From Planctomycetota bacterium (GTDB taxonomy: Bacteria; Planctomycetota; UBA8108; JACQVS01): 64,000 nucleotides of DNA. The notes beneath the pieces were generated by a model that saw only the letters and a program-made list of their open reading frames with translations, did not search any database and was not told the DNA's origin. Both the position numbers and the translations under genes were made by a program. Below, piece after piece: positions 13,287 through 43,289 of the stretch (within the stretch, counting starts at the first letter, position 1; every line of letters begins with the position of its first letter). Location: the NCBI GenBank assembly GCA_016209605.1, contig JACQVS010000106.1, forward strand, positions 6,916-70,915. The letters run 5' to 3'.

Positions 13287-13298
13287 TCCCCCTTTCTT

Positions 13299-13378
13299 AT
13301 AATGCGGGCTTCGCCCGCAACCGAGCTATCCGCAACTTCTCCGCAAGAAGCGGAGAAGTTGCGGAGGAAAAATCTAAA
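13299..13378. repeat. Intergenic composite palindromic repeat, family A, copy 1 (forward orientation)
   Basis: taatgcgggcttcgcccgcaaccgagctatccgcaacttctccgcaAGAAgcggagaagttgcggaggaaaaat: a 6-bp hairpin plus a 16-bp hairpin. Near-identical copies at 22044, 26790 (reverse) and 43188 (reverse). Confidence 0.8.
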
Positions 13379-15336: not shown

Positions 15337-15428
15337 GGGTTCATGAAAAAATTCAAGAGCTGCAGGTGACGAAAATGGAGATTATACTGGCAGGAATTCT
15401 GGGAGGGAATTCTCAATTCAAGGGTCAA

Positions 15429-15476
15429 GCCCATTAAATTTTCTGCGGCGCTGACGCCACAGAAAATTTAATGGGC
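15429..15476. repeat. 22-bp-stem hairpin (gcccattaaattttctgcggcg...cgccacagaaaatttaatgggc) in the 630-nt noncoding region
   Basis: Read directly; one mismatch, 4-nt loop. Confidence 0.7.
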
Positions 15477-15511
15477 AATAACAGGGAGGGAATTGACAAT
15501 CCTGGGATTAA

Positions 15512-15559
15512 GCCCGCTCGATTTTTTGCGGCGCGGACGCTGCAAAAAATCGAGCGGGC
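15512..15559. repeat. Second hairpin of the same architecture (gcccgctcgattttttgcgg...ctgcaaaaaatcgagcgggc), with compensatory base changes relative to the first
   Basis: Read directly. Outer stem cattaaa/tttaatg in copy 1 becomes gctcgat/atcgagc here, preserving pairing. A third GGCCCGT...ACGGGCC hairpin lies at 15580-15607. Confidence 0.7.
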
Positions 15560-15968
15560 AATAAATAAAATAATAAAAAGGCCCGTCACTGTCTCCAGCA
15601 ACGGGCCCATGGAACGTGGGTTGGGGGCGTTCTATAAAGCACTAGATAATGAGGTTGTCGGTAGCTTTTATCCTCGCGCTCCCCAGCGCTTCCGCATCGT
15701 CACCAGCGATCGGGCGCCTATGGCTTTCCCCTCTTTAACTCTTGTGGAGTCGACTGAACGTTTCTTTCAGACTCAAACGACGCGCAGGAGCGTCACTGAA
15801 GAATAGGTTGAAAAAAAAGCTGCGTCAAGAGTCAAAAATTGTCACCGGCGGGCCGCGGCCGCGGGTCAAAATTCGCTTCCAAACCGGGGAGGAAACGGCC
15901 GGGGTGTCTCTGATCTGGATGCTTTTGAAGCGTATGCCAGCACTGGATGACCGGTAATCCCCCCGATC

Positions 15969-22043: not shown

Positions 22044-22123
22044 TAATGCGGGCTTCGCCCGCAACCGAGCTATCCGCAACTTCTCCGCAAGATGCGGAGA
22101 AGTTGCGGATGAAAAATTTAAAT
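22044..22123. repeat. Family A palindromic repeat, copy 2 (forward), inserted between plsX and fabH inside the FAS II cluster
   Basis: Same 80-nt core as 13299-13378, with loop AGAT. Confidence 0.8.
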
Positions 22124-26754: not shown

Positions 26755-26789
26755 GATGATTTTCCCGGAATCCTCGCTCAGGCTGCCAT

Positions 26790-26866
26790 TAGATTTTTCC
26801 TCCGCAACTTCTCCGCATCCTGCGGAGAAGTTGCGGATAGCTCGGTTGCGGGCGAAGCCCGCATTA
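26790..26866. repeat. Family A palindromic repeat, copy 3 (reverse orientation)
   Basis: Reverse complement matches the 13299 core; loop GGAT. Confidence 0.8.
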
Positions 26867-26872
26867 TCAGCT

Positions 26873-27778: not shown

Positions 27779-27910
27779 GAAGCCTCCTGGGGACTGTCCA
27801 TGGGAGCCGATAAACCAGGTAAAACCGTGAAATTATACGGTCCCGCCGCTCTCCGTCAATAAACCCTCAACTTCATTGCGGCCGGACCCCGGCCGTGCTA
27901 TCCTTTTATA

Positions 27911-28094
27911 AGAGCCTGTCCCAAAAATCCATTCGGGCTTCGGCCGGCTGCAAAGGCGCCATGCTGCGTTGGGCCTCCTCGCCTTATTTCTCCGCCTAAT
28001 AAGGCTTCGTCGGTCCGCCTTGCCTGGCGCCTTTTCGCTCGGCCTCGGGCCTCGAAGCGACTTTCGGGACAGGCTCGAAGCGGAAGAAACAGGC
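27911..28094. mobile_element. MITE-like element, family B, copy A (terminal inverted repeats AGAGCCTGTCCC / GGGACAGGCTC, plus a duplicated end fragment gaaacaggc)
   Basis: About 75% identical to the copies at 29761-29966 and 34135-34301. Shared core cttcggccggctgcaa.ggcgcc...gggcctcct.gcc. Confidence 0.65.
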
Positions 28095-28162
28095 CGGCTG
28101 AAGTTTTTATAAAAACAATCATAAATCGAATTTACATCCCCTCCCACTGCATAGAACGCCAG

Positions 28163-29221
28163 GTGCCAGCGCGAATTTTCAAGGTAGATCCCAAGCAGTT
28201 TGACCCGCAGTGCCTGTCCGAGGCCGCCGGGATCCTGCGCTCGGGGGGAATTGTCGCCTTCCCCACCGAGACGGTCTACGGCCTGGGAGCGGCGGCCGAG
28301 AATCCCGAGGCCGTCGCCCGGCTGTGCGAGCTGAAAGGCCGGCCGAAGGACCAGCCCTTGACCCTCCACCTCGCCGACCCGGCGGAGGCGGAGAAGCACG
28401 CCGGCCAGATCCCCCGCCTGGCCCGCTTGCTCATGAACCGCTACTGGCCGGGGCCTCTCACCTTGATCCTGCCGGGGAAGTCGGGCGAGCCGGTGGGCCT
28501 GCGCGCCCCCTCCCATCCGGTGGCGCGGGAGCTGCTGCGCCAGGCGGGAGCGCCGGTCGTGGCGACGAGCGCCAACCCGCACGGCCAGCCGGACGCGACC
28601 GACGCCGAGGCGGTTACCGCCTGTTTCGGCGATCGGATCGAGGCCATGGTCGACGGCGGGCCGGCGATCCTCAAGCAGGCTTCCGCCGTCGTCCGCGTCG
28701 ATGAGCAGGGCTACAAGGTGCTGCGCCAGGGGATCATCACCCACGAGATGGTCCATCAGCTGCTGGTGGGGAAGGACATCCTCTTCGTCTGCACCGGGAA
28801 CAGCTGCCGCAGCCCCATGGCCGAGGCGCTCTTCCGCAAGTATCTCGCCAGGAAGCTGTCCGTGGCCGAGGACGACCTGCGCCAGCTCGGCTACTCGATC
28901 CACTCGGCCGGCATCTCCGCCATTGACGGCGGCGTGGCCAGCTCCCTGGCCGTCAAGGTGATGAAGGACATGGAGTGCGACTTGACCCGCCACACCACCC
29001 GCCAGCTCACCGGCGAGATGGTGGAGGAGGCGGACCGCATCTACACCCTCGGCCTCACCCACTACCAGCAGCTCCTCCAGCGCTACCCGCACCTCGAGGA
29101 GAAGCTGAGCATGCTGGCGGAAGAGAGCGTCGCCGATCCCATCGGCGGCAATATCGACGCCTACTGGCAGTGCGCCCGGGAGATCGAGGAGGGGGTGAGG
29201 AGGGTCCTGGAGAATTTCTAG
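28163..29221 (+). CDS. Fusion protein: L-threonylcarbamoyladenylate synthase (YrdC/Sua5/YwlC domain) + low-molecular-weight protein tyrosine/arginine phosphatase (YwlE-like)
   Basis: 352 aa; the N-terminal half has the YrdC fold signature (VAFPTETVYGLGA...SANPHG). The C-terminal half has the LMW-PTP P-loop VCTGNSCRSPMAEA and the DP loop. Confidence 0.85.
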   Translation: MPARIFKVDPKQFDPQCLSEAAGILRSGGIVAFPTETVYGLGAAAENPEAVARLCELKGRPKDQPLTLHLADPAEAEKHAGQIPRLARLLMNRYWPGPLTLILPGKSGEPVGLRAPSHPVARELLRQAGAPVVATSANPHGQPDATDAEAVTACFGDRIEAMVDGGPAILKQASAVVRVDEQGYKVLRQGIITHEMVHQLLVGKDILFVCTGNSCRSPMAEALFRKYLARKLSVAEDDLRQLGYSIHSAGISAIDGGVASSLAVKVMKDMECDLTRHTTRQLTGEMVEEADRIYTLGLTHYQQLLQRYPHLEEKLSMLAEESVADPIGGNIDAYWQCAREIEEGVRRVLENF

Positions 29222-29250
29222 ATTTATATATTAACGCGAGGACCGGAGCC

Positions 29251-29709
29251 ATGAAAATCGCCATCGCCAGCGACCACGCCGGCAGGAACCTGCGCCGTAA
29301 GATCAAGAGCCATCTCGCCGCCCGGGGCCACGAGGTGGTCGACCTCGGCCCCGAGTCGAGCGATCCCGTCGACTACCCCGACTACGCCGTCCAGGCCGCG
29401 AGACAGGTGGCGGGCGGCAAGGCGGAGCGCGGCGTCCTGGTCTGCGGCTCGGGAATGGGCATGATGCTCAGCGCCAACAAGGTCCCGGGCATCCTGGCGG
29501 TCGTCCCCCACACGGAAGATGAGGCCAGGCTGAGCCGAGCCCACAACAACACCAACGTCGCCTGCTTCGGCGAGCGCACCCAGGACCCCGAGCAGGTCCT
29601 CCAGCTCCTGGACCTCTGGCTCGCCACCCCCTTCGAAGGCGGCCGCCACGCGAGGAGGGTCGAGAAGATCCACAAGATCGAGGAGTCCCGCCAGGGAGGG
29701 GAGAAGTAA
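29251..29709 (+). CDS. rpiB: Ribose-5-phosphate isomerase B (start at MKIAIASDHAG; the tracked 28975 start is an upstream extension)
   Basis: RpiB/LacAB motifs (IASDHAG, VLVCGSGMGM). Confidence 0.9.
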   Translation: MKIAIASDHAGRNLRRKIKSHLAARGHEVVDLGPESSDPVDYPDYAVQAARQVAGGKAERGVLVCGSGMGMMLSANKVPGILAVVPHTEDEARLSRAHNNTNVACFGERTQDPEQVLQLLDLWLATPFEGGRHARRVEKIHKIEESRQGGEK

Positions 29710-29760
29710 ACGATGGGTCCTTGCTCCTCGACAAATCCGATAATGTGGCGCGGTAAAATT

Positions 29761-29966
29761 AGAGCCTGTTTCAGTAGACCATTCGGCCACCTCTGCAAGA
29801 GCACGGGGCCGGCTGCGAAGGCGCCAGCCGGCGTTGGGCCTCCTAGCCTTATTTCTCCGGTTAATAAGGCGGCGTCGGCCCGCCTTGTCTGGCGCCTTCT
29901 CGCCGGGCACCGCCCGGCGAAAGCCGGGTGGTCGCGGGCCTCGAAGCGCCTACCGAAACAGGCTCT
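29761..29966. mobile_element. MITE-like element, family B, copy B (terminal inverted repeats AGAGCCTGTTTC / GAAACAGGCTCT)
   Basis: 206 nt. The ~20-bp terminal inverted repeats match copy C. Internal ccttatt-tctccgg-aataagg hairpin. Confidence 0.7.
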
Positions 29967-29973
29967 TAGTCGA

Positions 29974-30387
29974 CTCCTGGCCCTCGGGATCGTGGGCGCC
30001 GCCCTGATGGCGGGGCCGCCTGGCGGCTCCCTTGCCACGGCCGCGCCGGACCAGGAACCAGGCCGGGAGCAACCTTTGACCATCGGTTTCCACAAGCAGC
30101 TTCTGGTGGATGACGCCATCGTTTCTCAGCGCACCAAAGTCAGCCGTGAGCTGGGACAAGTGACCAAAGCCAACGGCGGCAAACCGCTGATCGTCGCTGA
30201 AAGATCCTGGGAGAACGCCGATCTCATCCGGCTGGGAGCCGTTTTCCGGGACGGCGGGCGATTCCGAATGTGGTATCAGATGAACGACACGCTCTTCGGC
30301 TATGCCGAATCGGAAGACGGACTGCGCTGGACCAAGCCAAACCTGGGCTTTTACGAACATGGGGGGAGCAAGGACAACAACTTGTAG
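29974..30387 (+). CDS. Hypothetical protein (signal-peptide-like N-terminus if a CTG/GTG start just after the MITE is used; possibly a truncated fragment)
   Basis: The tracked ORF 29713..30387 has an N-terminal third that is translated MITE. The remainder (…LALGIVGAALMAGPPGGSLATAAP…WENADLIRLGAVFRDGGRFRMWYQ…) is protein-like but ends abruptly; there is no recognised family. Start not established. Confidence 0.35.
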   Translation, partial: LLALGIVGAALMAGPPGGSLATAAPDQEPGREQPLTIGFHKQLLVDDAIVSQRTKVSRELGQVTKANGGKPLIVAERSWENADLIRLGAVFRDGGRFRMWYQMNDTLFGYAESEDGLRWTKPNLGFYEHGGSKDNNL

Positions 30388-30390
30388 CGC

Positions 30391-32439
30391 TCACCCCTCC
30401 GACTCGCCCGTGAAGAGGAAGTGCTGCACTCCCGCCCTCGCCCACAGCTCCTTGCGGTAGCTCTGGAAGTAGAAGTCCTGGCGCTCGCGGAGGAGATTGG
30501 CGTGGTAGTACTTCTGCCTCTCCTTGAACTCCTCGGGATTGGGATTGAGCTTGCCGTTCAACCGGACGATGTAGAAAGCCCCGTTATCATCGTCGCGCAC
30601 GGCGCGGCCTGTCTTGCCCTCCTCCTCGATGGCGCAGGCCTCTCCGATCAACAGGCTGCTGCCCGGATGGGGCCTGGTGGCGGGCCTGGAAGGCTCGTCG
30701 CCCGGCGCCTCGGTCTTTTTCTTCCTGGCCGCTTTTTCATCCGGAACCTGAATCGAACCGTAGCGCTTCAGGAAGGGGCTGTCCACCACCTTGGCGCCGG
30801 CTTCCTTGGCGGCCTCCTCGAAGGACTTCTTCCCCTCGCGGATCGCCGCGGCCAGCGCCTCGGCCTGGTCGCGCAGCCGGTCCAGCGCCCGCGCCTTGAT
30901 CAGCTCATCGCGGGCCTCATCCTTCACCGGCTCGACACTGGTGGGGAGGCCGGGGTAGCGCACCTTGAGGTCGTGGTAAAGCACCAGGCCGTCCTTGTCC
31001 TGGGTCTCCTGCCAGAATTCCGCCACCTTGATGGCCACCTTCTTGCTCTCGTCCGTCTCCTTGGCGTTCTTGTCGGCGGTGGCGAACCAGCTCGAGACCT
31101 GGAAGGTGTAAAGGTTGCCGAGCTTGTCCAAGGCCTCCGGGCGGGTGAACCACTCCGAGGCGCCGGCCTGGAAATAGGGGTGCTTCTGCGCCACCTCGGC
31201 GGCGGTGGCGGGCTTCGCCGGGGCGGCCGGCGCCGGCTGATTCTCGCCCGAGCCGGCCGGCGGCGCCGCCGGCTTCTCCTCCGGCATCAGCATCTTCCGG
31301 ATCTCGTCGGCGGCCTTCCTCGCCAGCTCCTGGCTTTTCGATCTGGTGAGGTCCTTCACCACCTCGGCGCGCACCGCCTCGAGGGGCTTGTAGAGCTTCT
31401 GCTCGCGGGCCTCTTTATCCTGCGAGGAGAGCAGGTTGAACTCCGACTCGTCGACGTTCAGCCCCACCGAGTACTTCTCCTGCCGGGTGCGCAGGTACTC
31501 GCTTTTGATGTCGTCCTCGGTGAGCTGCGCCTCCTTCTCGAACACCTCGAAAGGAATGAAGTAGTGGCCGACCTGGATCTTGGACTCCTTGAGCTTGAAG
31601 CTGTCGAGGTTGTCCTCGAAGTGTTTTTTGATCTCCGCATCGGTGATCTTGGCGGCCACCTCCTCCTTGAGCTTGGCATCGGGCTTGAGCTCGAAGAAGG
31701 AAAGCTTGCGCAGCTGCTCCCTGCGCTGGTATTCCTGGTAAACCTCATCGGGATTGATTTGCGCCGAGTTGCGGGCATAGTCCACCGCCTTCTCGGCCTT
31801 GAGGTAGTTGGCCAGCATGGTCTCGAATTTCCGCGGGGAGACGCCGCTGATGCGGTGCTCCTGGAACTTCCTGAAGAGGCGCAGCCAGTCGGCGAGGTCC
31901 CAGGCGTTCGCCTTGCGCAGATCCTCCTTGCGCTGGAACCAGGCCATCCGGAGGTTGTCGAGCTTGCCGCCCGGCGCTGCGGCATTGGCGGCGCGGGCAT
32001 CCTCGGCGGCCCTCATGCCCCAGTAAATTTCCCGGATCGCCGCCCCCAATTCATCCTTCGAGATGATGATCCCCAGGCGGTCGGCCTCGTGCTGGAAGAG
32101 GAGATAGTCAACCCAGTCGAGGCGGCCATCCCGGCCCTCGCCGAAGCGGAGCGGGCGGAAGGTGTCGGCCAGGAAGGTATTGATCACCAGGATTTCCGAG
32201 TTCGCCGCGATCTGGTCCCGGTCATAAATCACCTTCCTGTCGATCTTCAGCCGCGGCGATTTGCTTCCCAGTGTGCCGAAGTAAGTCGTCGTGGCCCCGG
32301 TGAAGGCAAAGGAGAAGGAAATCAGCACCAGGAGGACCACCCAGAAGACTTTCTCGTTGACCTTGACCCAGAGCCAGAACCGGTCCCAGGTGGTTTGCTC
32401 CTTGCGGCGCCGGTGCTCCATACGATCGTGCTTGGCCAT
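30391..32439 (-). CDS. Membrane-anchored periplasmic chaperone, PpiD/SurA-like (putative)
   Basis: 682 aa; N-terminal TM helix (VFWVVLLVLISFSFAF), long charged periplasmic domain resembling SurA_N/PpiD chaperone modules. No clear parvulin catalytic motif was seen, hence low confidence. Confidence 0.45.
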   Translation of the reverse strand: MAKHDRMEHRRRKEQTTWDRFWLWVKVNEKVFWVVLLVLISFSFAFTGATTTYFGTLGSKSPRLKIDRKVIYDRDQIAANSEILVINTFLADTFRPLRFGEGRDGRLDWVDYLLFQHEADRLGIIISKDELGAAIREIYWGMRAAEDARAANAAAPGGKLDNLRMAWFQRKEDLRKANAWDLADWLRLFRKFQEHRISGVSPRKFETMLANYLKAEKAVDYARNSAQINPDEVYQEYQRREQLRKLSFFELKPDAKLKEEVAAKITDAEIKKHFEDNLDSFKLKESKIQVGHYFIPFEVFEKEAQLTEDDIKSEYLRTRQEKYSVGLNVDESEFNLLSSQDKEAREQKLYKPLEAVRAEVVKDLTRSKSQELARKAADEIRKMLMPEEKPAAPPAGSGENQPAPAAPAKPATAAEVAQKHPYFQAGASEWFTRPEALDKLGNLYTFQVSSWFATADKNAKETDESKKVAIKVAEFWQETQDKDGLVLYHDLKVRYPGLPTSVEPVKDEARDELIKARALDRLRDQAEALAAAIREGKKSFEEAAKEAGAKVVDSPFLKRYGSIQVPDEKAARKKKTEAPGDEPSRPATRPHPGSSLLIGEACAIEEEGKTGRAVRDDDNGAFYIVRLNGKLNPNPEEFKERQKYYHANLLRERQDFYFQSYRKELWARAGVQHFLFTGESEG

Positions 32440-32576
32440 GTTGAACTCCTTGACGAAGCCTCGCTCCCGGAGCCTTCCGATCCTTCCGGAAGCCGGGGCG
32501 AGGCGCCTGGCTTATTGATCGATCAAATTCCGAGCAAATCAATATAAGCCACGGAGCCGCTCCCCTGCAAATAGTT

Positions 32577-34130
32577 TTACCATGAAATGAGCACCTGCGC
32601 CTTGAGGGCGTGCAGCTCCTTGAAGTCCGGGTTCAAGAAGCGGTAATCTTTCTCGTAATCGTAAGCGATCAAAAAACTCAGTATGCTCATGGGCCGCCAG
32701 CGGACATGGGCCTGAAGCGCCCAGGCGTTCAGGCCGGCGAGGTCCGCGAAGCGGTTTGAGTACTCATAGTTGCGCAGCTCGACCGCCGTTCCCACCGCCA
32801 CCTTGCGAGCCCAGTCCTGCTCGAGCCGCGCCTCGAGGCCGACGAAGCGCGGCTCGCCGTCGCCGGTCACGTCGCTGATAAAGCGAGGATCATCCCGGTC
32901 GTAATACTGCCGCCTCGGGAGGTCGGTATCGAGGTAGCGGATGACGGCGCGGCCGGTCAAGCCCTCCCAGGGGAAGTGCAGCGAGTCAAGGCCGCCCCAG
33001 ACCTCGCGCCAGTCGGAGTTGTAGGCATCGCGGTCCGAGCGGCCGCGCACCCAGTGGCCGGTCCCTCCCAGGAGGAGGCCGAAGGATCCGGTGATCTCCT
33101 GGCGGACCTCGAGGCTCGCTTCATCGTAAGGGTCGATCTCTCCGAGGTTGAAGTGGCGGTCATGGTCGCGGTCCTCGACCGGGGCGCGCTCCGAGAAGGT
33201 GTAGTCGAAGGTGAAGTCGTTCGAGGACCGCCCCAGCCGGCCATAGTAGCTTCCGCGCGCCTCCAGCCCCCAGCCGGACTCCTGGAAGACCGCCTCGAGC
33301 TGCGCCGACTCGGGATGCTCGTTCACCTGGCGGTAGAGGAGCTGCATCGAGGCCAGCGGCCCCAGCCTCTGGAGGAGCGAGGCTTTCAGGGAGTTGTCGA
33401 GGTAATAGACGTCGGCAAACTCGAACTCGGTCCCCTGGGCGGGAAAATACTTGAGCGCGCCGCCGTAAAGGCCGGTCCTGGACACGCTGGGAAAGTAAGT
33501 CGCCCGCGCCCCGGCGAAGGCGTCGATCTCCACCGGCCGGTCAAAGAGCCCCAGCCCGCGGACATGGATCCGGCCGCCGTCGAAGTGGACGTACTCGGCC
33601 CCCTCGAAGTACTGCCGGCCCCCGGTGAACTCGAGATGCCTCTGGAGAAGGAGCGCTTTGAAGTTCAAGGCGCCGAGCTGCGCCTGGTCGCCGCCCGGAA
33701 AGCGGTCGTAAGCGCCGAGCGATTCGTTTCCAGCCGCGGTGCCGTCGAGGTCGGTGAAACCGCGGATGGAAAACTCGGTGTCCAGGCCCTGGCACCAGCC
33801 GCTCTGGGTTGCCGGCACGATCAGGTCATGAGTGCGCACCGCGAAGTACTGGTCGAGGTCGTGGTCTTGGTTGCGGCGGCGGCGGTCCTCCAGCTCGGCG
33901 GCGAACTGCCGGTCGGCGGGGTCGATGTCCGGAAAGTTGAAACGGAAGCGTCCGAAGCGAAAGAACTGCGCCTGATAAGCGGCCCGATAGGTGAGGTGGA
34001 GCTTCCCCTTGAGGGTCGGATCCTTCCACAGCTCCGCCGCCCCGGGCTTCTTCTCCTCCGCCGGGCCCGGCCGGCATGAAAGGAACAGCGCCGCCAGGAA
34101 CGCGAACAGCCCGGCCAGTCGCGCTGCCAG
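32577..34130 (-). CDS. Outer-membrane beta-barrel protein (putative porin partner of the upstream multiheme cytochrome). Start re-placed after the MITE; the tracked start at 34367 reads through the element
   Basis: Lipoprotein-type signal sequence (RLAARLAGLFAFLAALFLSC) immediately after the MITE. Alternating amphipathic beta-strand pattern; C-terminal aromatic residue (…VLISW). Only a CTG is available as a start at 34130, so the start is uncertain. Confidence 0.55.
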   Translation of the reverse strand: MAARLAGLFAFLAALFLSCRPGPAEEKKPGAAELWKDPTLKGKLHLTYRAAYQAQFFRFGRFRFNFPDIDPADRQFAAELEDRRRRNQDHDLDQYFAVRTHDLIVPATQSGWCQGLDTEFSIRGFTDLDGTAAGNESLGAYDRFPGGDQAQLGALNFKALLLQRHLEFTGGRQYFEGAEYVHFDGGRIHVRGLGLFDRPVEIDAFAGARATYFPSVSRTGLYGGALKYFPAQGTEFEFADVYYLDNSLKASLLQRLGPLASMQLLYRQVNEHPESAQLEAVFQESGWGLEARGSYYGRLGRSSNDFTFDYTFSERAPVEDRDHDRHFNLGEIDPYDEASLEVRQEITGSFGLLLGGTGHWVRGRSDRDAYNSDWREVWGGLDSLHFPWEGLTGRAVIRYLDTDLPRRQYYDRDDPRFISDVTGDGEPRFVGLEARLEQDWARKVAVGTAVELRNYEYSNRFADLAGLNAWALQAHVRWRPMSILSFLIAYDYEKDYRFLNPDFKELHALKAQVLISW

Positions 34131-34134
34131 CCTA

Positions 34135-34301
34135 AGAGCCTGTTTCAGTAGCCCTCCTGGCTTCGGCCGGCTGCAAGTGCGCCATACTGCGTTGCGCCTC
34201 CTCGCCGATACTCTCCGACTGTATCGCCTACGTCGGCGCGCCTTGTCTGGCGCGCTTTCGCTCGGCCTCGGGCCGACGGATGACCTACCGAAACAGGCTC
34301 T
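34135..34301. mobile_element. MITE-like element, family B, copy C, inserted between the multiheme cytochrome gene and its downstream beta-barrel gene
   Basis: Terminal inverted repeats ctAAGAGCCTGTTTCAGTAG / CTACCGAAACAGGCTCTaaaa. Internal cgatac-tctccgact-gtatcg hairpin, with a compensatory change relative to copies A and B. Confidence 0.7.
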
Positions 34302-34363
34302 AAAATCCGGCTCCAGCACCGGCCGGGGCGGCCAAAAACACGGTTGAGGAGGGAGGGATCGGC

Positions 34364-35104
34364 TCATGGGGGGCTATGGCAGGGGGCGCAATTGCCCTGG
34401 AAGGAGTGGCAGGTCAAGCAGGCGCGCACCTTGAGCCGCGCCACTTGCTTGTGGCCGCCCGCCCGGAAGGTCGGCGTATGATCGGGCGGCGGCTGGCGGT
34501 GGCAGTTCTCGCAGAAATCGGAGCTGTGGCAGGTGGCGCAGGAGCGGCGGTCCTGGATGGCATACCGGCCGTGGGTGGAGCGCAGGAAGCGGAGGTTGTG
34601 GGACTGCGGCTTCCAGGTGCTGTGGCACTGCTGGCACTCGGACTCGAGGTGGCACAGAGAGCACTTGTAGGCCTCGCGGCGGGCCATGTCCTTGTGATGG
34701 CCGGTCCACGCCGCGGTGTGGAAGCGCGGCTTGCGCTCGCGGCGGTTCTCCACATGGCAGGTCTCGCAGGCCTGCGATTTCTCCACCCCGTTGTGGCACT
34801 GGAAGCAGGTCTTCATCGGCGGCAGGCCTCCGGCGAGCACTTCCTCCCGAGAGGCGCTCTGGCCGTGGCAGGTCGAGCAGTCGAGCTTGCGGTGCAGCTC
34901 GTGGGAGAAGATGATCTCTTGATGAGAATAGGGGGGGTGGTTCTGAGAGAAGGAAAGCGGCGCCAGGGAACCTTCCTCGAGTTGATCGATGTCGATGATG
35001 GTGCAGCCCAGGACGAGAACTGCCGCCACGAGGACGCAGGCGAAGGGAACCCGGAAACTTGACAAATTCCGAGAGAAAAGTAAAGGCAACACCATCTCCT
35101 TCAC
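34364..35104 (-). CDS. Periplasmic or lipid-anchored multiheme c-type cytochrome (9 CxxCH sites)
   Basis: 246 aa; CSTCH, CFQCH, CETCH, CSLCH, CQQCH, CATCH, CENCH, CLTCH, CAPCH. N-terminal signal with a possible lipobox (VLGC). Its stop overlaps the ATG of the downstream ORF (ATGA). Confidence 0.85.
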   Translation of the reverse strand: MKEMVLPLLFSRNLSSFRVPFACVLVAAVLVLGCTIIDIDQLEEGSLAPLSFSQNHPPYSHQEIIFSHELHRKLDCSTCHGQSASREEVLAGGLPPMKTCFQCHNGVEKSQACETCHVENRRERKPRFHTAAWTGHHKDMARREAYKCSLCHLESECQQCHSTWKPQSHNLRFLRSTHGRYAIQDRRSCATCHSSDFCENCHRQPPPDHTPTFRAGGHKQVARLKVRACLTCHSFQGNCAPCHSPP

Positions 35105-39437: not shown

Positions 39438-41141
39438 TTAGATGCTCGCAATCGTCTCCTTCACGACTTCCTCGATGGTGGTGATCCCGTCATAAATGTG
39501 CAGGAGGCCGCTTTCGCGGAGGGTGCGCATGCCTTCTTCCTTGGCCACTTGCCGGAGCTCGGCCGTTGAGCCGCTCTTCATGATGGTCTCCTTGATGCGG
39601 TCGCTTGCCAGCATGATCTCGAGAACGGCGATACGGCCCTTGTAGCCGCTGCCGTTGCAGCGCTTGCAGCCTTTGCCGTAGTAGAACTGCTTCCCCTCGA
39701 CATCGGAGGGGGTCAGCTCCAGCTCGTAAAGCTCCTTGTCGGAGGGGTCGTACGGCATCTTGCACTCGGCGCAGATGCGCCGCACCAGCCGCTGGGCCAG
39801 GATGCCTTCCAGGGTGGCGGTGATCAAGAAAGGCTCCAGGCCAAGGTCGACGAGGCGGGTCACCGCTGAAGGCGCATCGTTGGTGTGCAGGGTGGTGAAA
39901 ACGATGTGTCCCGTCAAGGAAGCCTCCACGGAGATCTGCGCGGTCTCCAGGTCGCGCACCTCGCCGACCAGGATGATGTCCGGGTCCTGGCGCAGGATGG
40001 AGCGCAGGCAGTTCGCGAAGGTGACGCCGATTTCCTCGTTGATCTGCACCTGGACAATGCCCTCGAGGTCGTACTCCACCGGGTCCTCCGTGGTGATGAT
40101 CTTGACATCGATGGTATTGGCCTCATTGAGGGCTGAATAGAGGGTGGTGGTCTTGCCGGAGCCGGTTGGGCCGGTCACCAGGATGATGCCGTCGGGCTTG
40201 GCGATGAGGTTGCGGAAGATGCGCAGCTCATCTGACCTGAAGCCGAGCTGGTCGAGGTTGAGGCTGACGTTGGCGCGGTCGAGAACACGCAGCACCACGC
40301 TCTCGCCGAACATGGTCGGCAGGGTCGAGACGCGCAAGTCGACGGGATTGCCGCCGATATTGAGCTCGATGCGCCCATCCTGCGGCAGGCGGGTTTCGGC
40401 GATGTCCAGGTTGGAGAGCACCTTGACGCGGGAGATGAGCGCCCGGGCCAGCTGGATGGGGGGCGGCATCATTTCGTAAAGCACGCCGTCGACGCGGTAC
40501 CGCACCTTGAACTCGTGCTCGAAGGGCTCGAGGTGGATGTCGGAGCCGCGGTCGCGCACCGCCTGGAGGAGGACCATGTTGAGGAGCTTCACGACCGGGG
40601 CGGCGTTCACATCCTTCTCCAGCTGCTCGATGTTGATGTCTTCCCGCTTCGAGGTGATATCCAGCTTCCCATCGCCCATTTGACTGAGGTAATCACTGAC
40701 GCCGCTGCTCTTGTTATAATAGCGCTCGATGCATTGATGGATCGCCTCCTTGCCGCCGACCAGGGCCTTGAAGGCCGGGATCTTGGGCAGGGAGAAGCGC
40801 AAGTCCTCGAGGACGTTCAGGTTGGTCGGGTCGGCAATGGCCACCGTCAGGGTGTGGCCGTCGTAAAGCAAGGGCATGACCTCGAGGGTCTCGGCAGTGT
40901 TCTGATCCACCAGGTCCAGGACCTCGGGTGCGATCTCCGCCTTGGAGAGGTCGGCGAACTCCATGCCCGCCTGCTTGGCCAGGGCGCGGGTCAGATCGGC
41001 ATCGGTGATGGCGCCGCTCTCCATCAGGATCTGTCCGATAGCTCCGCCACTGTCCTTCTGCTTCTTGAGAGCTTGCTGGATATCAAACTCTTTCAAGATG
41101 TTCATTTCCTTGAGGATTTGACCGATAAAGTGTCGAGCCAT
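39438..41141 (-). CDS. GspE/PilB-family secretion ATPase (paralog 1) with N-terminal GspE_N/MshEN-like domain
   Basis: 567 aa; Walker A GPTGSGKTT, Asp and His boxes, tetracysteine CAEC…CKRC zinc motif. Confidence 0.9.
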   Translation of the reverse strand: MARHFIGQILKEMNILKEFDIQQALKKQKDSGGAIGQILMESGAITDADLTRALAKQAGMEFADLSKAEIAPEVLDLVDQNTAETLEVMPLLYDGHTLTVAIADPTNLNVLEDLRFSLPKIPAFKALVGGKEAIHQCIERYYNKSSGVSDYLSQMGDGKLDITSKREDINIEQLEKDVNAAPVVKLLNMVLLQAVRDRGSDIHLEPFEHEFKVRYRVDGVLYEMMPPPIQLARALISRVKVLSNLDIAETRLPQDGRIELNIGGNPVDLRVSTLPTMFGESVVLRVLDRANVSLNLDQLGFRSDELRIFRNLIAKPDGIILVTGPTGSGKTTTLYSALNEANTIDVKIITTEDPVEYDLEGIVQVQINEEIGVTFANCLRSILRQDPDIILVGEVRDLETAQISVEASLTGHIVFTTLHTNDAPSAVTRLVDLGLEPFLITATLEGILAQRLVRRICAECKMPYDPSDKELYELELTPSDVEGKQFYYGKGCKRCNGSGYKGRIAVLEIMLASDRIKETIMKSGSTAELRQVAKEEGMRTLRESGLLHIYDGITTIEEVVKETIASI

Positions 41142-41236: not shown

Positions 41237-42925
41237 TCAGATCTCCATTTCGGCGCGATGGGTGATGCGCAGAACCTCCTCGATGGTGGTCATGCCGGCA
41301 AGCACCTTGCGGGCCGCATCCTCCTGCAGGGTAACCATGCCCTCGGAGCGGGCCTTGGCGCGGATCTCCTGGGTCGGCTTCTTCTTGAAGGACATATCCC
41401 GGAGGTCAGGGCTCATTTCCATGAGCTCGTAGACGCCTTTCCGCCCCTTGTATCCCTGATTGCTGCAGTTGGGGCAGCCGACCGGCTTGTACAGGGTCAG
41501 GCCCTCGAGCTTGTCGCGGGTCAAACCGATGGAGCGCATCTCCACATCGCTCGGCTCGTAGGGGGCCTTGCAGTGGGGGCAGAGGATGCGCACCAGGCGC
41601 TGGCCCATGATCGCCATGATCGCCGACGCCACCAGGAAGGGCTTCACGCCCATATCGATCAGGCGGGTGATGGCCGATGGGGCGTCGTTGGTGTGCAAGG
41701 TGCTGAACACCAGGTGACCGGTGAGCGCCGCTTGAATGGCGATGTCGGCCGTCTCGCGGTCGCGGACCTCGCCCACCAGGATGATGTTGGGGGCCTGGCG
41801 CATCATGGCGCGAAGGATGCGCTGAAAGGTCAAGCCGATCTCGTGGCGCACCTCCGACTGGTTGATGCCCGGCAAGTTGTACTCGATGGGATTTTCCGCG
41901 GTGATGATCTTGACATCGGGCCGGTTGAGTTTCTTGAGGGCGGCGTACAGGGTCGTGGTCTTGCCGGAGCCGGTCGGCCCGGTGACCAGGAAGATGCCGT
42001 TCGGGCGCTTGATGATCTTCTGAAACCGCTGGTAGTCGCTCTCGTGGAAGCCCAGCTCTTCCAAATCCACCAGCCCTTTCTCCTTGTCGAGGATGCGCAT
42101 GACGACGCTCTCGCCGTGGCGGCCCGGCAGCGCGGAGACGCGCAAGTCGATCTCGCGCCCCATGACGTTGATCTTGATGCGTCCGTCTTGAGGCCGCCGC
42201 TTCTCGGCCATGTCCATCCTGGACATGATCTTGATGCGCGAGAGGATGGGGCCCTGCAGCTTCTTGGGCGGATTCTCCTTCTCCAGGCAGACGCCGTCGA
42301 TGCGGTAGCGGATGCGCACGCGGTTCTCGAAGGGCTCGACGTGGATGTCGCTGGCCCGCTCTTTCAGGGCGTTGGAAATGAGCTGGGTCACGTACTTGAT
42401 GACGGGGGCGTCGTTGGCCTCGGCATCCTCGCCGGCGTACTCGCCGCGCCCCACCACCACCTGCTCGCCATCGGCCCCCAGGACGTCCTTCAAGTTGCCG
42501 GTCAAGCGGTAGTACTGGTCGAGGGCCTCTTCAATCGCCTCCGGCGTGGCGATGGCGCAGTCAACTTGCTGATTGAGCAGGAAGCGCAGGTCATCCAGGG
42601 TGGCCAGATCGAAGTCCGACATGGCGACGATCAGCTTGCCGTTTTGCTTGACCACCGGAATCACCTTGTGCTCGATGGCCACTTCCTTGGGTACCAGGCC
42701 GATCACCGGCTGCTTGATTTCGGCCTTGCTCAAGTCGGCGAATGGCAGCCCGTAATGGCGGGCCAGGGCGCGGCTCACCGATTTCTGGTCGCAGGCGTTG
42801 ATCTTGACCAGGGCTTCGCCGATGCGGCAGCTGTTTGCTCTAGAGTACTCAAGCGCCTTGGTGATCTGGTCATCGTTGACGGCGCCCATGGCCTTCAAAA
42901 TCTGTCCAATCGATTTTTTGTTCAA
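41237..42925 (-). CDS. GspE/PilB-family secretion ATPase (paralog 2)
   Basis: 562 aa; same architecture as paralog 1 (GPTGSGKTT, CPHC…CPNC). A divergent tandem duplicate. Confidence 0.9.
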   Translation of the reverse strand: MNKKSIGQILKAMGAVNDDQITKALEYSRANSCRIGEALVKINACDQKSVSRALARHYGLPFADLSKAEIKQPVIGLVPKEVAIEHKVIPVVKQNGKLIVAMSDFDLATLDDLRFLLNQQVDCAIATPEAIEEALDQYYRLTGNLKDVLGADGEQVVVGRGEYAGEDAEANDAPVIKYVTQLISNALKERASDIHVEPFENRVRIRYRIDGVCLEKENPPKKLQGPILSRIKIMSRMDMAEKRRPQDGRIKINVMGREIDLRVSALPGRHGESVVMRILDKEKGLVDLEELGFHESDYQRFQKIIKRPNGIFLVTGPTGSGKTTTLYAALKKLNRPDVKIITAENPIEYNLPGINQSEVRHEIGLTFQRILRAMMRQAPNIILVGEVRDRETADIAIQAALTGHLVFSTLHTNDAPSAITRLIDMGVKPFLVASAIMAIMGQRLVRILCPHCKAPYEPSDVEMRSIGLTRDKLEGLTLYKPVGCPNCSNQGYKGRKGVYELMEMSPDLRDMSFKKKPTQEIRAKARSEGMVTLQEDAARKVLAGMTTIEEVLRITHRAEMEI

Positions 42926-43187: not shown

Positions 43188-43264
43188 TAGATTCTTCCTC
43201 CGCAACTTCTCCGCAGCCTGCGGAGAAGTTGCGGATAGCTCGGTTGCGGGCGGAGCCCGCATTA
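43188..43264. repeat. Family A palindromic repeat, copy 4 (reverse orientation)
   Basis: Reverse complement matches the 13299 core; loop GGCT. Confidence 0.8.
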
Positions 43265-43289
43265 TGAGAAAAACCGTTCCGGCGGCCGC

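What the first reader, a model, noticed from the sequence alone, without database searches (positions are those of the whole stretch)
27911..34301. A ~170-205-nt MITE-like element family (3 copies) with terminal inverted repeats and a structurally conserved internal hairpin
The copies at 27911-28094, 29761-29966 and 34135-34301 begin with AGAGCCTGT(TTC/CCC) and end with the reverse complement (GAAACAGGCTCT / GGGACAGGCTC). They share an internal core (cttcggccggctgcaa.ggcgcc … gggcctcct.gcc) at about 75% identity, and all lie in intergenic DNA. Two copies (29761 and 34135) translate in-frame into the N-terminus of the gene that follows, and the third sits upstream of tsaC, so all distort gene-start prediction. 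Each copy contains a hairpin with the conserved loop tctccg(g/c/a)(t/c)t. The stem differs between copies by compensatory changes (ccttatt/aataagg against cgatac/gtatcg). That is the signature of selection on RNA structure. So the family could equally be a small-RNA gene family or a MITE that is transcribed.
Basis: seen in the sequence. Interest (0 to 1): 0.65.

Follow-up and report, generated by a model that had tools for sequence, protein, structure and literature searches.

The report
Correia-like palindromic mobile element family
The three repeats are copies of a small, non-coding "jumping" DNA palindrome (a MITE) that has landed inside and next to genes of a groundwater planctomycete; its central hairpin resembles the Correia element of Neisseria, which the literature I could search reports only from Neisseria.

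Summary
Three same-strand copies (27912-28076, 29762-29965, 34136-34300) each fold into one long rod hairpin, with terminal inverted repeats GAGCCTGT(TTC/CCC). They are flanked by TTA/TTA and TAA/TAA, and by TAA/GAA at c1.

It is a mobile, non-autonomous element, not a small-RNA gene.
- A 90%-identical orthologue in another assembly lacks copy c3.
- c2 and c3 sit in frame inside the 5' coding ends of two secreted-protein genes.
- A fourth copy on the same contig is translated in frame inside a Ser/Thr kinase.
- There is no Rfam match and no promoter or terminator tied to the copies.
- G-U and A-C mismatches are balanced between the strands.

Six relatives (five in Gemmatimonadota MAGs, one on a soil contig) keep the central ~70-100 nt but have unrelated outer arms that still pair. 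The same core hairpin occurs in Burkholderiales elements and in the Neisseria Correia element (about 72% identity over ~65 nt). The Correia terminal repeat, IHF site and promoter elements are absent.

The compensatory changes are genuine, but a DNA palindrome produces them too, so they do not show RNA-level selection.

Verdict: a new variant of a known kind. The mobilising enzyme is unknown here, as it is for Correia elements.

The parts
27912..28076 (+). Copy c1 (165 nt). TIR variant GAGCCTGTCCC / GGGACAGGCTC. It lies between the pfkB promoter region and tsaC. Flanks are TAA (27909-27911) and GAA (28077-28079).
   Evidence: Rod hairpin of -89 kcal/mol, z -6.1.
28086..28095 (+). Solitary TIR-like fragment GAAACAGGCC, 9 nt beyond the right end of c1. 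Possibly a remnant of another insertion.
   Evidence: Read directly. It matches the c2/c3 right TIR at 9 of 10 positions.
29762..29965 (+). Copy c2 (204 nt; two extra side hairpins). Flanked by TTA (29759-29761) and TTA (29966-29968). It lies in frame inside the 5' end of ORF 29713/29743-30387.
   Evidence: Removing the element and one TTA gives MWRGKISRLLALGIVGAALMAG..., a signal-peptide-like N-terminus.
34136..34300 (+). Copy c3 (165 nt). Flanked by TAA (34133-34135) and TAA (34301-34303). It lies in frame, in reverse orientation, inside the 5' end of the minus-strand lipoprotein/outer-membrane gene 32577-34367.
   Evidence: The 90%-identical orthologue P0002 (locus L020) lacks it.
27958..28028 (+). 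Conserved core hairpin of c1: GCCATGCTGCGTTGGGCCTCCTCG - apical hairpin - CGTCGGTCCGCCTTGCCTGGC.
   Evidence: Alignments A3 and A5; pair counts.
29823..29893 (+). Conserved core hairpin of c2.
34181..34251 (+). Conserved core hairpin of c3. This is the part that aligns with the Neisseria Correia element and the Burkholderiales elements.
27981..28005 (+). Apical hairpin of c1 (GCCTTATT / loop TCTCCGCCT / AATAAGGC).
29846..29870 (+). Apical hairpin of c2 (GCCTTATT / loop TCTCCGGTT / AATAAGGC).
34206..34226 (+). Apical hairpin of c3 (CGATAC / loop TCTCCGACT / GTATCG). It resembles CCGTAC...GTAC of Correia-type elements.
32577..34367 (-). Host gene of c3: a 596-aa predicted lipoprotein/outer-membrane protein (public protein P0001, tag HY717_09555). 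Its ATG overlaps the stop codon of the upstream cytochrome-c7-like gene (ATGA), as in the orthologue.
29713..30387 (+). Host ORF of c2: a short secreted-protein-like gene downstream of rpiB. In-frame ATGs at 29713 and 29743.

Best explanation
The three repeats are copies of a non-autonomous, palindromic transposable element (a MITE) of 165-204 bp that encodes no enzyme of its own.

Shown:
- Each copy is one long imperfect palindrome, with 11-12-bp terminal inverted repeats beginning GAGCC.
- c2 and c3 are flanked by a duplicated TTA or TAA (equally readable as 4-bp TTAG/CTAA); c1 has TAA/GAA.
- The element is present or absent between closely related genomes.
- Because these copies are multiples of 3 nt and lack stop codons in the host frame, copies that landed in coding DNA are read through as 55-68 extra residues. 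Two sit just ahead of the hydrophobic part of a signal peptide. One sits in the linker of a Ser/Thr kinase.
- The central ~70-nt hairpin of the element is shared with elements in Gemmatimonadota, in Burkholderiales chromids, in two IMG/VR contigs, and with the Neisseria Correia element (CREE/NEMIS). The outer arms differ between lineages but still pair.

Inferred:
- It is moved in trans by a DDE transposase that cuts at the inverted ends and inserts at T(A/T)A or YTAR sites. In a GC-rich genome such sites occur mainly at stop codons and gene starts. The IS5 family is the best guess.
- The conserved core is kept because something recognises it. Candidates are the mobilising enzyme, or a host factor such as RNase III acting on read-through transcripts, as shown for Correia elements.
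For: Copies, repeats and fold.

Flanking direct repeats:
- c2 TTA/TTA, c3 TAA/TAA, L001 TTA/TTA, L006 TAA/TAA.
- L010 and L013 have (C)TAG on both sides.
- These occur in genomes of 62-70% G+C.

Insertion polymorphism:
- The orthologue P0002 (90% identical protein, assembly GCA_040961615.1) lacks c3. Its N-terminus is MSRSLLPQPRFWPPEPVRARLAGLLAFLAALLLPC.
- The window has 189 extra nt at that point.
- More distant syntenic relatives carry no copy.

Fourth copy: Ser/Thr kinase MBI4584316.1, whose only contig on record has the same length (138,761 bp) as the contig of P0001 and P0012, carries the element in frame at residues 400-465. That is after the kinase domain (98-356) and before a stretch I read as a membrane helix.

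Relatives with the same core and different, still-pairing arms: five Gemmatimonadota MAG loci and one soil contig.

Link to Correia:
- An IMG/VR hairpin (L033) that carries the window family's core pattern hits Neisseria gonorrhoeae at 40 or more places per record. It also hits Cupriavidus, Eleftheria and Ralstonia at E 3e-9 to 4e-7.
- The Neisseria element, the Eleftheria element and the Cupriavidus element each find c3, on the + strand, as their best local alignment in the whole 64-kb window.
- The Neisseria score (32) exceeds the best score of all 60 dinucleotide shuffles (maximum 29).
- A 14-sequence core alignment has 72% mean column identity. It pairs at 82% of cells, against 28-51% when partners are slid.

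Literature:
- MITE features and in-frame RPE insertions (PMC10969869).
- Correia structure, target duplication and unknown mobilising mechanism (PMC2649163).
- Open frames of the 107-bp Correia form fused to other ORFs (PMC2229807).
- The YTAR duplication of IS5 (PMC10359306).
- The AYTAG target with TA duplication of IS1301 (PMC2193550).
Against: - No transposase or full-length IS with matching ends was found. The rest of the source genome could not be read, so genome-wide copy number is unknown.
- The empty site is not clean. The window has 189 extra nt, not the 168 expected for element plus duplication.
- Two relatives (L004, L009), c1 (TAA/GAA) and, judging from its protein sequence, the kinase copy lack a clean duplication.
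- The terminal repeats, which a transposase should recognise, are the least conserved part across lineages, and the centre is the most conserved. This is the reverse of the usual MITE pattern and is unexplained.
- The path to Correia began from loci fished with a pattern derived from the window family, so part of the similarity is by construction.
- The family profile scores the Neisseria element at only 2 bits. The Ralstonia query was no better than its shuffles, 17 of 60 reaching its score.
Confidence: 0.75

Rival explanations
1. A family of small-RNA genes. Each copy is an independent transcription unit producing a ~170-nt rod-shaped regulatory RNA. The conserved unpaired CCUCCUC (anti-Shine-Dalgarno-like) stretch next to the apical hairpin pairs with ribosome-binding sites.
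For: - Very stable folds.
- Conserved unpaired nucleotides in internal loops, and covarying stems across phyla.
- A conserved U-G pair in 13 of 14 cores.
- A CCTCCTC stretch that is unpaired in the predicted fold.
Against: - No Rfam match, even at E up to 10.
- No promoter-like or terminator-like site tied to the copies.
- c2 lies in the sense orientation of its host gene and c3 in the antisense orientation, and both are inside coding sequence.
- A fourth copy is translated inside a kinase.
- G-U and A-C mismatches are balanced between the strands.
- Flanking duplications and an orthologue without the element point to transposition.
Confidence: 0.06
2. A lineage-specific MITE with no evolutionary link to Correia elements. 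On this reading the resemblance of the core is a chance or convergent match between short GC-rich palindromes, inflated by the way the intermediates were found.
For: - The intermediates L021 and L033 were fished with a 20-nt pattern taken from the window family.
- The family profile scores Neisseria, Cupriavidus and Eleftheria at only 2-9 bits.
- The Ralstonia query scored no better than its shuffles (17 of 60).
- The terminal repeats are unrelated.
Against: - The Neisseria element, a fixed known sequence, finds c3 as its best match in 128 kb of searched sequence. The score exceeds all 60 shuffles, and the alignment is collinear at about 72% identity through both halves and the apical hairpin.
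- L021 and L033 also match at positions outside the pattern, and have the same architecture: two half-motifs on opposite arms around an apical hairpin.
- Burkholderiales members begin GAGC(C/G), and several are flanked by TTA or TAA, like the window copies.
- The 14-sequence alignment has 17 invariant columns.
Confidence: 0.17
3. A REP/REPIN-like or other hairpin element moved as single-stranded DNA by a HUH (RAYT or IS200/IS605-type) enzyme. This would explain why the structure and the centre, rather than the ends, are conserved.
For: - The whole element is a hairpin whose arms co-vary, while the internal loops are conserved.
- Within one genome the end variants TTC/GAA and CCC/GGG are matched on both arms.
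Against: - Flanking 3-4-bp direct repeats are present at most copies. HUH-mediated insertion does not make them (my own knowledge).
- The elements are 5-6 times longer than REPs.
- I saw no RAYT or TnpA gene near the copies in the window; not all window ORFs were scanned.
- All-same-strand orientation rests on only three copies.
Confidence: 0.05

Closest known systems
Correia repeat-enclosed element (CREE / NEMIS) of Neisseria, short 104-108-bp form
   Same: - A small non-coding palindromic MITE with TA-containing flanking duplications.
- A shared central core...ACGGCGTTGC(C/G)CC(G/T)CCT(T/C)GCCG(A)TAC - loop - GTA(C/T)... CGCCTTGTC. Identity is about 72% over ~65 nt between the gonococcal element and c3.
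- Both form a long hairpin in transcripts.
- Both are found in coding sequences and are open in some frames (PMC2229807).
- The mobilising enzyme is unknown for both (PMC2649163).
   Different: - The defining 26-bp Correia repeat (TATAGTGGATTAACAAAAACC...) is absent. The ends here are GAGCCTGTTTC....
- The window family has about 25 extra base pairs per arm (GGCCGGCTGC..GGCGCCA / TGGCGCC..CGCTCGGCC).
- No IHF consensus and no TATAAT-type promoter elements at the ends.
- The duplication is TTA/TAA rather than TA.
- Hosts are Planctomycetota and Gemmatimonadota, not Neisseria.
~112-bp palindromic elements on Burkholderiales chromids and megaplasmids (Eleftheria, Cupriavidus, Ralstonia, Paraburkholderia, Massilia); I found no published name for them
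   Same: - The same core hairpin.
- Ends beginning GAGC(C/G).
- TTA or TAA flanks in several copies.
   Different: - The outer arm is GCTAACAAAA-type, closer to the Neisseria repeat.
- They are shorter.
- They carry an unpaired ACCGCTGCGCTG stretch on the 3' arm.
- The family profile scores them only weakly.
Rickettsia palindromic elements (RPE)
   Same: Palindromic repeats of 100-150 bp inserted in frame into unrelated protein-coding genes, adding a peptide segment (PMC10969869). Here three of four copies do this.
   Different: No sequence relationship was examined. RPEs occur in AT-rich obligate intracellular bacteria. Enrichment of open frames here is weak.
MITEs mobilised by IS5-family transposases, and the eukaryotic Tourist / PIF-Harbinger type
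   Same: Short inverted ends and 3-4-bp duplications of TWA/YTAR type. IS5 duplicates YTAR (PMC10359306). IS1301 targets AYTAG (PMC2193550).
   Different: No IS with matching ends was found. The assignment rests on the duplication alone, plus my recollection that IS1031/IS427-group ends begin GAG.

Membership tests
MITE (non-autonomous DNA transposon) | Small size (<~300 bp) with no transposase gene | tested here: met
   165-204 nt. Any open frames give low-complexity peptides with no homologues apart from other copies.
MITE (non-autonomous DNA transposon) | Terminal inverted repeats | tested here: met
   GAGCCTGTTTC/GAAACAGGCTC (c2, c3) and GAGCCTGTCCC/GGGACAGGCTC (c1).
MITE (non-autonomous DNA transposon) | Target-site duplication | tested here: met
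   TTA or TAA on both sides in c2, c3, L001 and L006, and (C)TAG in L010 and L013. c1 is imperfect (TAA/GAA). L004 and L009 have none.
MITE (non-autonomous DNA transposon) | Multiple dispersed copies in one genome | tested here: met
   Three in the window, plus one inferred from protein MBI4584316.1, whose only recorded contig has the same length (138,761 bp). The genome-wide number is not obtainable.
MITE (non-autonomous DNA transposon) | Presence/absence polymorphism at orthologous sites | tested here: met
   c3 is absent from the 90%-identical orthologue locus L020. The difference is 189 nt, not exactly 168.
MITE (non-autonomous DNA transposon) | A cognate autonomous element or transposase with the same ends | not testable with these tools
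   No further TIR matches in the window. The source genome is not on record. No ISfinder access.
Correia element / CREE (strict sense) | 26-bp Correia repeat as the inverted ends | tested here: not met
   The ends are GAGCCTGTTTC.... Compare TATAGTGGATTAACAAAAACC in the gonococcal copy L055.
Correia element / CREE (strict sense) | Characteristic conserved core between the repeats | tested here: met
   About 72% identity over ~65 nt, collinear. c3 is the best hit in the window, above 60 of 60 shuffles. Alignment A5. Caveat: the route to this comparison was partly pattern-guided.
Correia element / CREE (strict sense) | TA target duplication | tested here: inconclusive
   The flanks contain TA but fit TTA/TAA or YTAR better.
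Correia element / CREE (strict sense) | IHF-binding site (long form) and sigma-70 promoter elements at the ends | tested here: not met
   No WATCAANNNNTTR in any of the nine copies. No promoter-like site at the copies.
Correia element / CREE (strict sense) | RNase III processing of the hairpin in transcripts | not testable with these tools
   Only the predicted hairpin is available.
Small-RNA gene family | Own promoter and terminator, with consistent orientation relative to neighbouring genes | tested here: not met
   c2 lies sense and c3 antisense to their host genes.
Small-RNA gene family | Match to a curated RNA family | tested here: not met
   No Rfam match at gathering score or at E up to 10.
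Small-RNA gene family | Strand-specific structural signal (G-U pairs on one strand only) | tested here: not met
   2-5 G-U pairs on the forward strand against 2-4 on the reverse strand per copy.
REP / REPIN (RAYT-mobilised) | Short (20-40 nt) palindromes, an associated RAYT gene, no target duplication | tested here: not met
   The elements are 156-204 nt with flanking duplications. I saw no RAYT-like ORF near the copies; not every window ORF was scanned.

The most novel reading that the evidence does not exclude
The ~70-nt core hairpin has conserved internal loops (UGC/CUU, a U bulge, UCCUCG/CGUC) between free-to-vary outer arms and a free-to-vary tip. On this reading it is the functional module of one ancient, cross-phylum superfamily of palindromic mobile elements, of which the Neisseria Correia element is only the best-known branch. 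The core, not the terminal repeats, would be what the still-unidentified mobilising enzyme or an essential host factor recognises. Comparing which enzyme families co-occur with the core in Neisseria, Burkholderiales, Gemmatimonadota and Planctomycetota could then identify the mobiliser of Correia elements.
Probability: 0.3. Interest if true: 0.7.

Novelty: new variant of a known kind. Interest (0 to 1): 0.5.

Why it matters
Correia elements were the first bacterial MITEs described and are known regulators in pathogenic Neisseria, through promoters, IHF binding and RNase III cleavage. [quoted passage not shown]

- A recognisable Correia-type core in planctomycete, Gemmatimonadota and Burkholderiales elements, with different ends, would make the family much older and wider than thought.
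- It would point to the core rather than the ends as the constrained part.
- It would open a comparative route to the mobilising enzyme.

Locally, the element matters for annotation and protein evolution. It adds 55-68 arginine-rich residues to a kinase linker. It also adds them ahead of the hydrophobic region of two signal peptides, which either inactivates export or shows that such insertions are tolerated.

Tried and rejected
- **Rfam.** Nothing at gathering score over the whole window, nor at E up to 10 over 27850-34400 and the two IMG/VR loci.
- **Plasmid and phage BLAST.** Queries c3 and the Gemmatimonadota copy L010 gave only chance-level hits, because shared exact words are shorter than 11 nt. 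L033 against phages gave nothing.
- **Six-frame protein trick.** A concatenated six-frame translation of four copies was used as a protein query to fish ORFs that overlap copies. Low-complexity candidates crowded out the true hits and nothing scored.
- **Reading beyond the window.** The source contig is not in the gene-position index, so the flanks and the DNA of the kinase copy could not be fetched.
- **Two further IMG/VR pattern scans** returned only coding-sequence chance hits.
- **More distant syntenic planctomycete loci** carry no copy.
- **Integron attC site.** Considered because c1 and c2 contain GTTGGGC, which fits GTTRRRY. Rejected: the pairing partner is not RYYYAAC, the elements are too long, and the genes between copies are housekeeping genes on both strands.
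- **A small ORF in the reverse strand** (AGGAGG ... ATG). Rejected: the ATG is not conserved, being CAGG or CTGG in other copies.
- **Intrinsic terminator.** Rejected: no U-run follows the hairpin on either strand.
- **Strand assignment by folding energy.** The reverse strand folds 5-14 kcal/mol better in all nine copies, but counting G-U against A-C gave no bias. I draw no conclusion from it.
- **Enrichment of open reading frames.** Weak (22 open frames against 15 expected, P about 0.02), and the copies are not independent.
- **Literature searches** for the sequences themselves and for 'Correia-like' found nothing relevant.

Full report
**1. The observation**

The window holds exactly three copies, all on the + strand: c1 27912-28076, c2 29762-29965 and c3 34136-34300.
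- Two core patterns taken from the copies occur three times each. Chance expectation is 0.07 and 0.56, and there are no weaker copies.
- The copies share a 123-nt core at 75-80% identity.
- The ends are inverted repeats: GAGCCTGTTTC/GAAACAGGCTC in c2 and c3, GAGCCTGTCCC/GGGACAGGCTC in c1.
The loop TCTCCGNYT is conserved, on stems CCTTATT/AATAAGG (c1, c2) or CGATAC/GTATCG (c3).
They fold as single rods of -82 to -123 kcal/mol, z about -6, and no shuffle out of 200 folds as well.
- c2 is longer because of two extra side hairpins placed symmetrically on the two arms.
- c1 ends at 28076.

**2. Where the copies sit**

The source is a 'MAG: Planctomycetes bacterium' (tag HY717_09555 for ORF 32577-34367; the protein's only recorded contig is 138,761 bp). 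Gene order is pfkB(-) | c1 | tsaC-LMW phosphatase fusion, rpiB | c2 + short secreted-protein ORF | 682-aa gene(-), 596-aa lipoprotein-like gene(-) carrying c3 | cytochrome c7-like gene(-). A relative with about 54% protein identity keeps this order.

- *c3.* It lies inside the 5' end of the 596-aa gene, in frame and in reverse orientation: MSRSLPPQPCFWPPRPVLEPDF-[56 residues]-RLAARLAGLFAFLAALFLSC.
- *Orthologue of the c3 host gene.* The 90%-identical orthologue P0002 (GCA_040961615.1) starts MSRSLLPQPRFWPPEPVRARLAGLLAFLAALLLPC.
  - At the DNA level it lacks the element. The window has 189 extra nt there.
  - In both genomes the ATG overlaps the stop of the upstream gene (ATGA). So c3 probably lies inside the coding sequence, in the N-terminal region of a lipoprotein-type signal peptide. 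An in-frame GTG further downstream could instead be the real start, which would put c3 just after the start codon.
  - More distant homologues have no such segment, so this is an insertion in the window lineage.
- *c2.* It lies in frame in the ORF that follows rpiB. Removing the element and one TTA gives MWRGKISRLLALGIVGAALMAGPPGGSLATAAP, again signal-peptide-like.
- *c1.* It lies upstream of the pfkB promoter-like site (27859-27832) and of tsaC. The public tsaC protein begins at 28163, so c1 does not affect it.

**3. A fourth copy**

A profile of the three copies translated in one frame was searched against 1.84 billion representative proteins and found one strong hit (4e-21). It is Ser/Thr kinase MBI4584316.1 from 'Planctomycetes bacterium'. 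Its only recorded contig is 138,761 bp long, the same length as the contig of P0001 and P0012, so I take it to be the same contig.
- The element-encoded 66 residues (400-465) lie between the kinase domain (98-356) and a hydrophobic stretch that I read as a membrane helix. The ORF continues for 540 more residues.
- So three of four known copies are read through as protein.
- This copy combines c1-type ends (EPVPKIH... / ...SDFRDGL) with the c2-type side hairpins.
- The end variants TTC/GAA and CCC/GGG are therefore each matched on both arms, in two copies each.

**4. Mobility signatures**

- *Window copies.* Immediately outside the palindrome, c2 has TTA|...|TTA, c3 has TAA|...|TAA and c1 has TAA|...|GAA.
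- *Relatives.* L001 has TTA/TTA, L006 has TAA/TAA, and L010 and L013 have (C)TAG on both sides. L004 and L009 show nothing.
- *Alternative reading.* Allowing one or two bases of slack at the boundary, six of the nine fit a 4-bp YTAR duplication (TTAG, CTAA, TTAG, CTAA, CTAG, CTAG).
- *Significance.* In genomes of 62-70% G+C, a TA at both boundaries is very unlikely by chance.
- *Gemmatimonadota loci.* There the boundary CTA often doubles as the stop codon (TAG) of the neighbouring gene. This is what a preference for TA-containing targets would give in GC-rich DNA. It also explains landings in AT-richer gene starts.
- *Known precedents.* IS5 duplicates YTAR (PMC10359306). IS1301 of Neisseria targets AYTAG and duplicates TA (PMC2193550).

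I therefore infer, but have not shown, a DDE transposase of the IS5 family acting in trans. No such gene or matching full-length IS could be looked for outside the window, because the source contig is not in the index.

**5. Relatives elsewhere**

- An exact-pattern scan of one genome per species found five true relatives, all in Gemmatimonadota MAGs. The other hits were lpdA coding sequence.
- The metagenome scan added one soil contig.
- In these six, the central ~100 nt is conserved: GCTGC..GCCA.GC.GCGTTG..CCTCCTCG - hairpin - CGTCGG..CGCCTTGCCTGGCGC.
- The outer 20-30 nt of each arm and the apical stem are different sequences that still pair.
- On the nine-sequence alignment, a rod structure taken from c1 pairs in 82.7% of cells, against 38-44% with slid partners. 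In 38 of 60 pairs both sides change, and 0 of 500 shuffles reach these values.

**6. What the covariation does and does not show**

An element whose two arms are inverted repeats in the DNA shows the same covariation as a selected RNA helix.
- It can arise from selection on a hairpin (DNA or RNA), from the need for two equivalent ends, or without selection by arm-to-arm template switching in quasi-palindromes. The last point is my own knowledge.
- A strand-specific signal would argue for RNA. There is none: per copy, 2-5 G-U pairs on the forward strand against 2-4 on the reverse.
- The reverse strand folds somewhat better in all copies, but I could not tie that to any specific feature.
- No Rfam family matches.
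- No promoter or terminator is associated with the copies.
- Orientation relative to host genes differs between c2 and c3.

The small-RNA gene reading is therefore unlikely. Read-through transcripts will of course contain a very stable hairpin.

**7. The link to Correia elements**

- *Intermediates.* A looser pattern scan of IMG/VR gave 16 loci. Two related ones (L021; and L033, between P2-like gpM and gpL) contain a ~100-nt palindrome with the same inner core and other outer arms. They also match at positions outside the pattern.
- *BLAST from L033.* Searching that hairpin against the plasmid collection, which includes chromids and some mislabelled chromosomes, hit Neisseria gonorrhoeae at 40 or more places per record. 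It also hit Eleftheria, Cupriavidus, Ralstonia and Undibacterium (E 3e-9 to 4e-7).
- *The Neisseria hit.* It is the short-form Correia element: TATAGTGGATTAACAAAAACCAGTACGGCGTTGCCCCGCCTTGCCGTAC-TATGTT-GTACTGTCTGCGGCTTCGTCGCCTTGTCCTGATTTTTGTTAATCCACTATA.
- *Burkholderiales members.* They are ~112 bp, begin GAGC(C/G)GCTAACAAAA, and several are flanked by TTA or TAA. The Eleftheria-type query matches 105 records, mostly Ralstonia megaplasmids, with 14 places on one Cupriavidus chromid.
- *Check for circularity.* Because the route started from a pattern derived from the window, I tested the link directly. The gonococcal element, the Eleftheria element and the Cupriavidus element each have c3, on the + strand, as their best local alignment in the whole window.
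  - The gonococcal score (32) exceeds the best of 60 dinucleotide shuffles (29).
  - The Eleftheria score is reached by 2 of 60 shuffles, and the Ralstonia score by 17 of 60.
  - The gonococcal alignment runs collinearly through both halves and the apical hairpin, at about 72% identity over ~65 nt.
- *Combined alignment.* Fourteen cores from five lineages give 72% mean column identity and 17 invariant columns. They pair at 82% of cells against 28-51% when slid, and 13 of 19 pairs change on both sides.
- *My estimate.* I put the homology at about 0.8. The family profile alone sees Neisseria at only 2 bits.

**8. Comparison with the known family**

According to PMC2649163:
- CREE are 153-157 or 104-108 bp, with the inverted repeat and a characteristic core.
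- They duplicate their target.
- They can carry promoters, an IHF site and RNase III substrates.
- Their mobilising mechanism has not been determined.

The window family shares the core, the MITE anatomy, the TA-containing duplication and occurrence within coding sequences (PMC2229807 for the 107-bp form). It lacks the Correia repeat, any IHF consensus and end promoters. It has about 25 extra base pairs per arm. It is therefore not a Correia element in the strict sense. It is a divergent branch of what looks like a wider superfamily. The phrase 'Correia-like' occurs in no paper of the searchable library, which is weak evidence that this has not been described.

The in-frame insertions work like Rickettsia palindromic elements (PMC10969869). 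The planctomycete copies are all multiples of 3 nt (165, 204, 165). Enrichment of open frames is only weak.

**9. Unexplained**

- The centre is conserved and the ends are not, which is the reverse of what transposase recognition of the ends predicts.
- The 189-nt rather than 168-nt difference at the c3 site.
- The extra TIR-like fragment next to c1.
- Whether proteins carrying 55-68 arginine-rich residues ahead of a signal-peptide hydrophobic core are still exported.

**10. Verdict**

- The MITE reading is supported. The RNA-selection and sRNA readings are not.
- It is a new variant of a known kind.
- Interest is moderate (0.5). This comes mainly from the probable kinship with Correia elements across phyla and the handle that gives on their unknown mobiliser.

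Noticed in passing
window 13296-13378(-), 22044-22122(-), 26789-26870(+), 43188-43268(+): A second, unrelated repeat family of ~80 nt: four intergenic copies 92-96% identical. Each has two hairpins, TCCGCAACTTCTCCGCA-loop-TGCGGAGAAGTTGCGGA and then TTGCGGGCGAAGCCCGCA. The near-identity suggests a recently active REP- or MITE-like element.
   Followed up: partly
window 15401-15481 and 15484-15564: Two tandem 81-nt units (75% identical). Each is GGGAGGGAATT... followed by a near-perfect 17-22-bp hairpin (AAATTTTCTGCGGCG..CGCCACAGAAAATTT). The hairpin stems differ between the units by compensatory changes.
   Followed up: partly
window 27877-27897 (+) and 27859-27832 (-): A terminator-like GC hairpin with a T-run lies just left of c1, on a strand with no upstream gene. 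A strong sigma-70-like site (TTGACG-16-TATAAT, 11 of 12 matches) faces pfkB.
   Followed up: no
L033 5677-5783 (-) and L021 1833-1932 (+) (IMG/VR contigs): Correia-type palindromic elements inside viral contigs. In L033 the element sits between P2-like terminase gpM and head-completion gpL. L033 also has a nearby direct repeat of GCGCCTTGTCTCAG(G/C)CT.
   Followed up: partly
L006 4829-4831, L009 5840-5842, L010 358-360: In the Gemmatimonadota loci the element boundary CTA coincides with the TAG stop codon of the adjacent gene. So these elements sit exactly at gene ends.
   Followed up: partly
protein P0133 (Microterricola viridarii, SDS45677.1; not in the window): A 368-aa 'hypothetical protein' made of five tandem repeats containing ...EPVEVIASLAPCQGFGRWRSLQPAC.... 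It weakly matches the translated left arm of the element (E 3e-7). It is probably the translation of some other tandem DNA repeat in an actinobacterium.
   Followed up: no
window 58646-62275 (+); 39438-41141 and 41237-42925 (-): A 1209-aa ORF with periodic repeats that I read as YD/RHS-type (units around 59975-60670). Also two adjacent paralogous genes, about 71% identical over 286 nt, sharing a Walker-A-like GGTCTTGCCGGAGCC stretch.
   Followed up: no
window 29968-30387 (+): The ORF that carries c2 is short (139 residues after the element) and stops right at the convergent 682-aa gene. It has no Pfam match and may be a truncated remnant.
   Followed up: no
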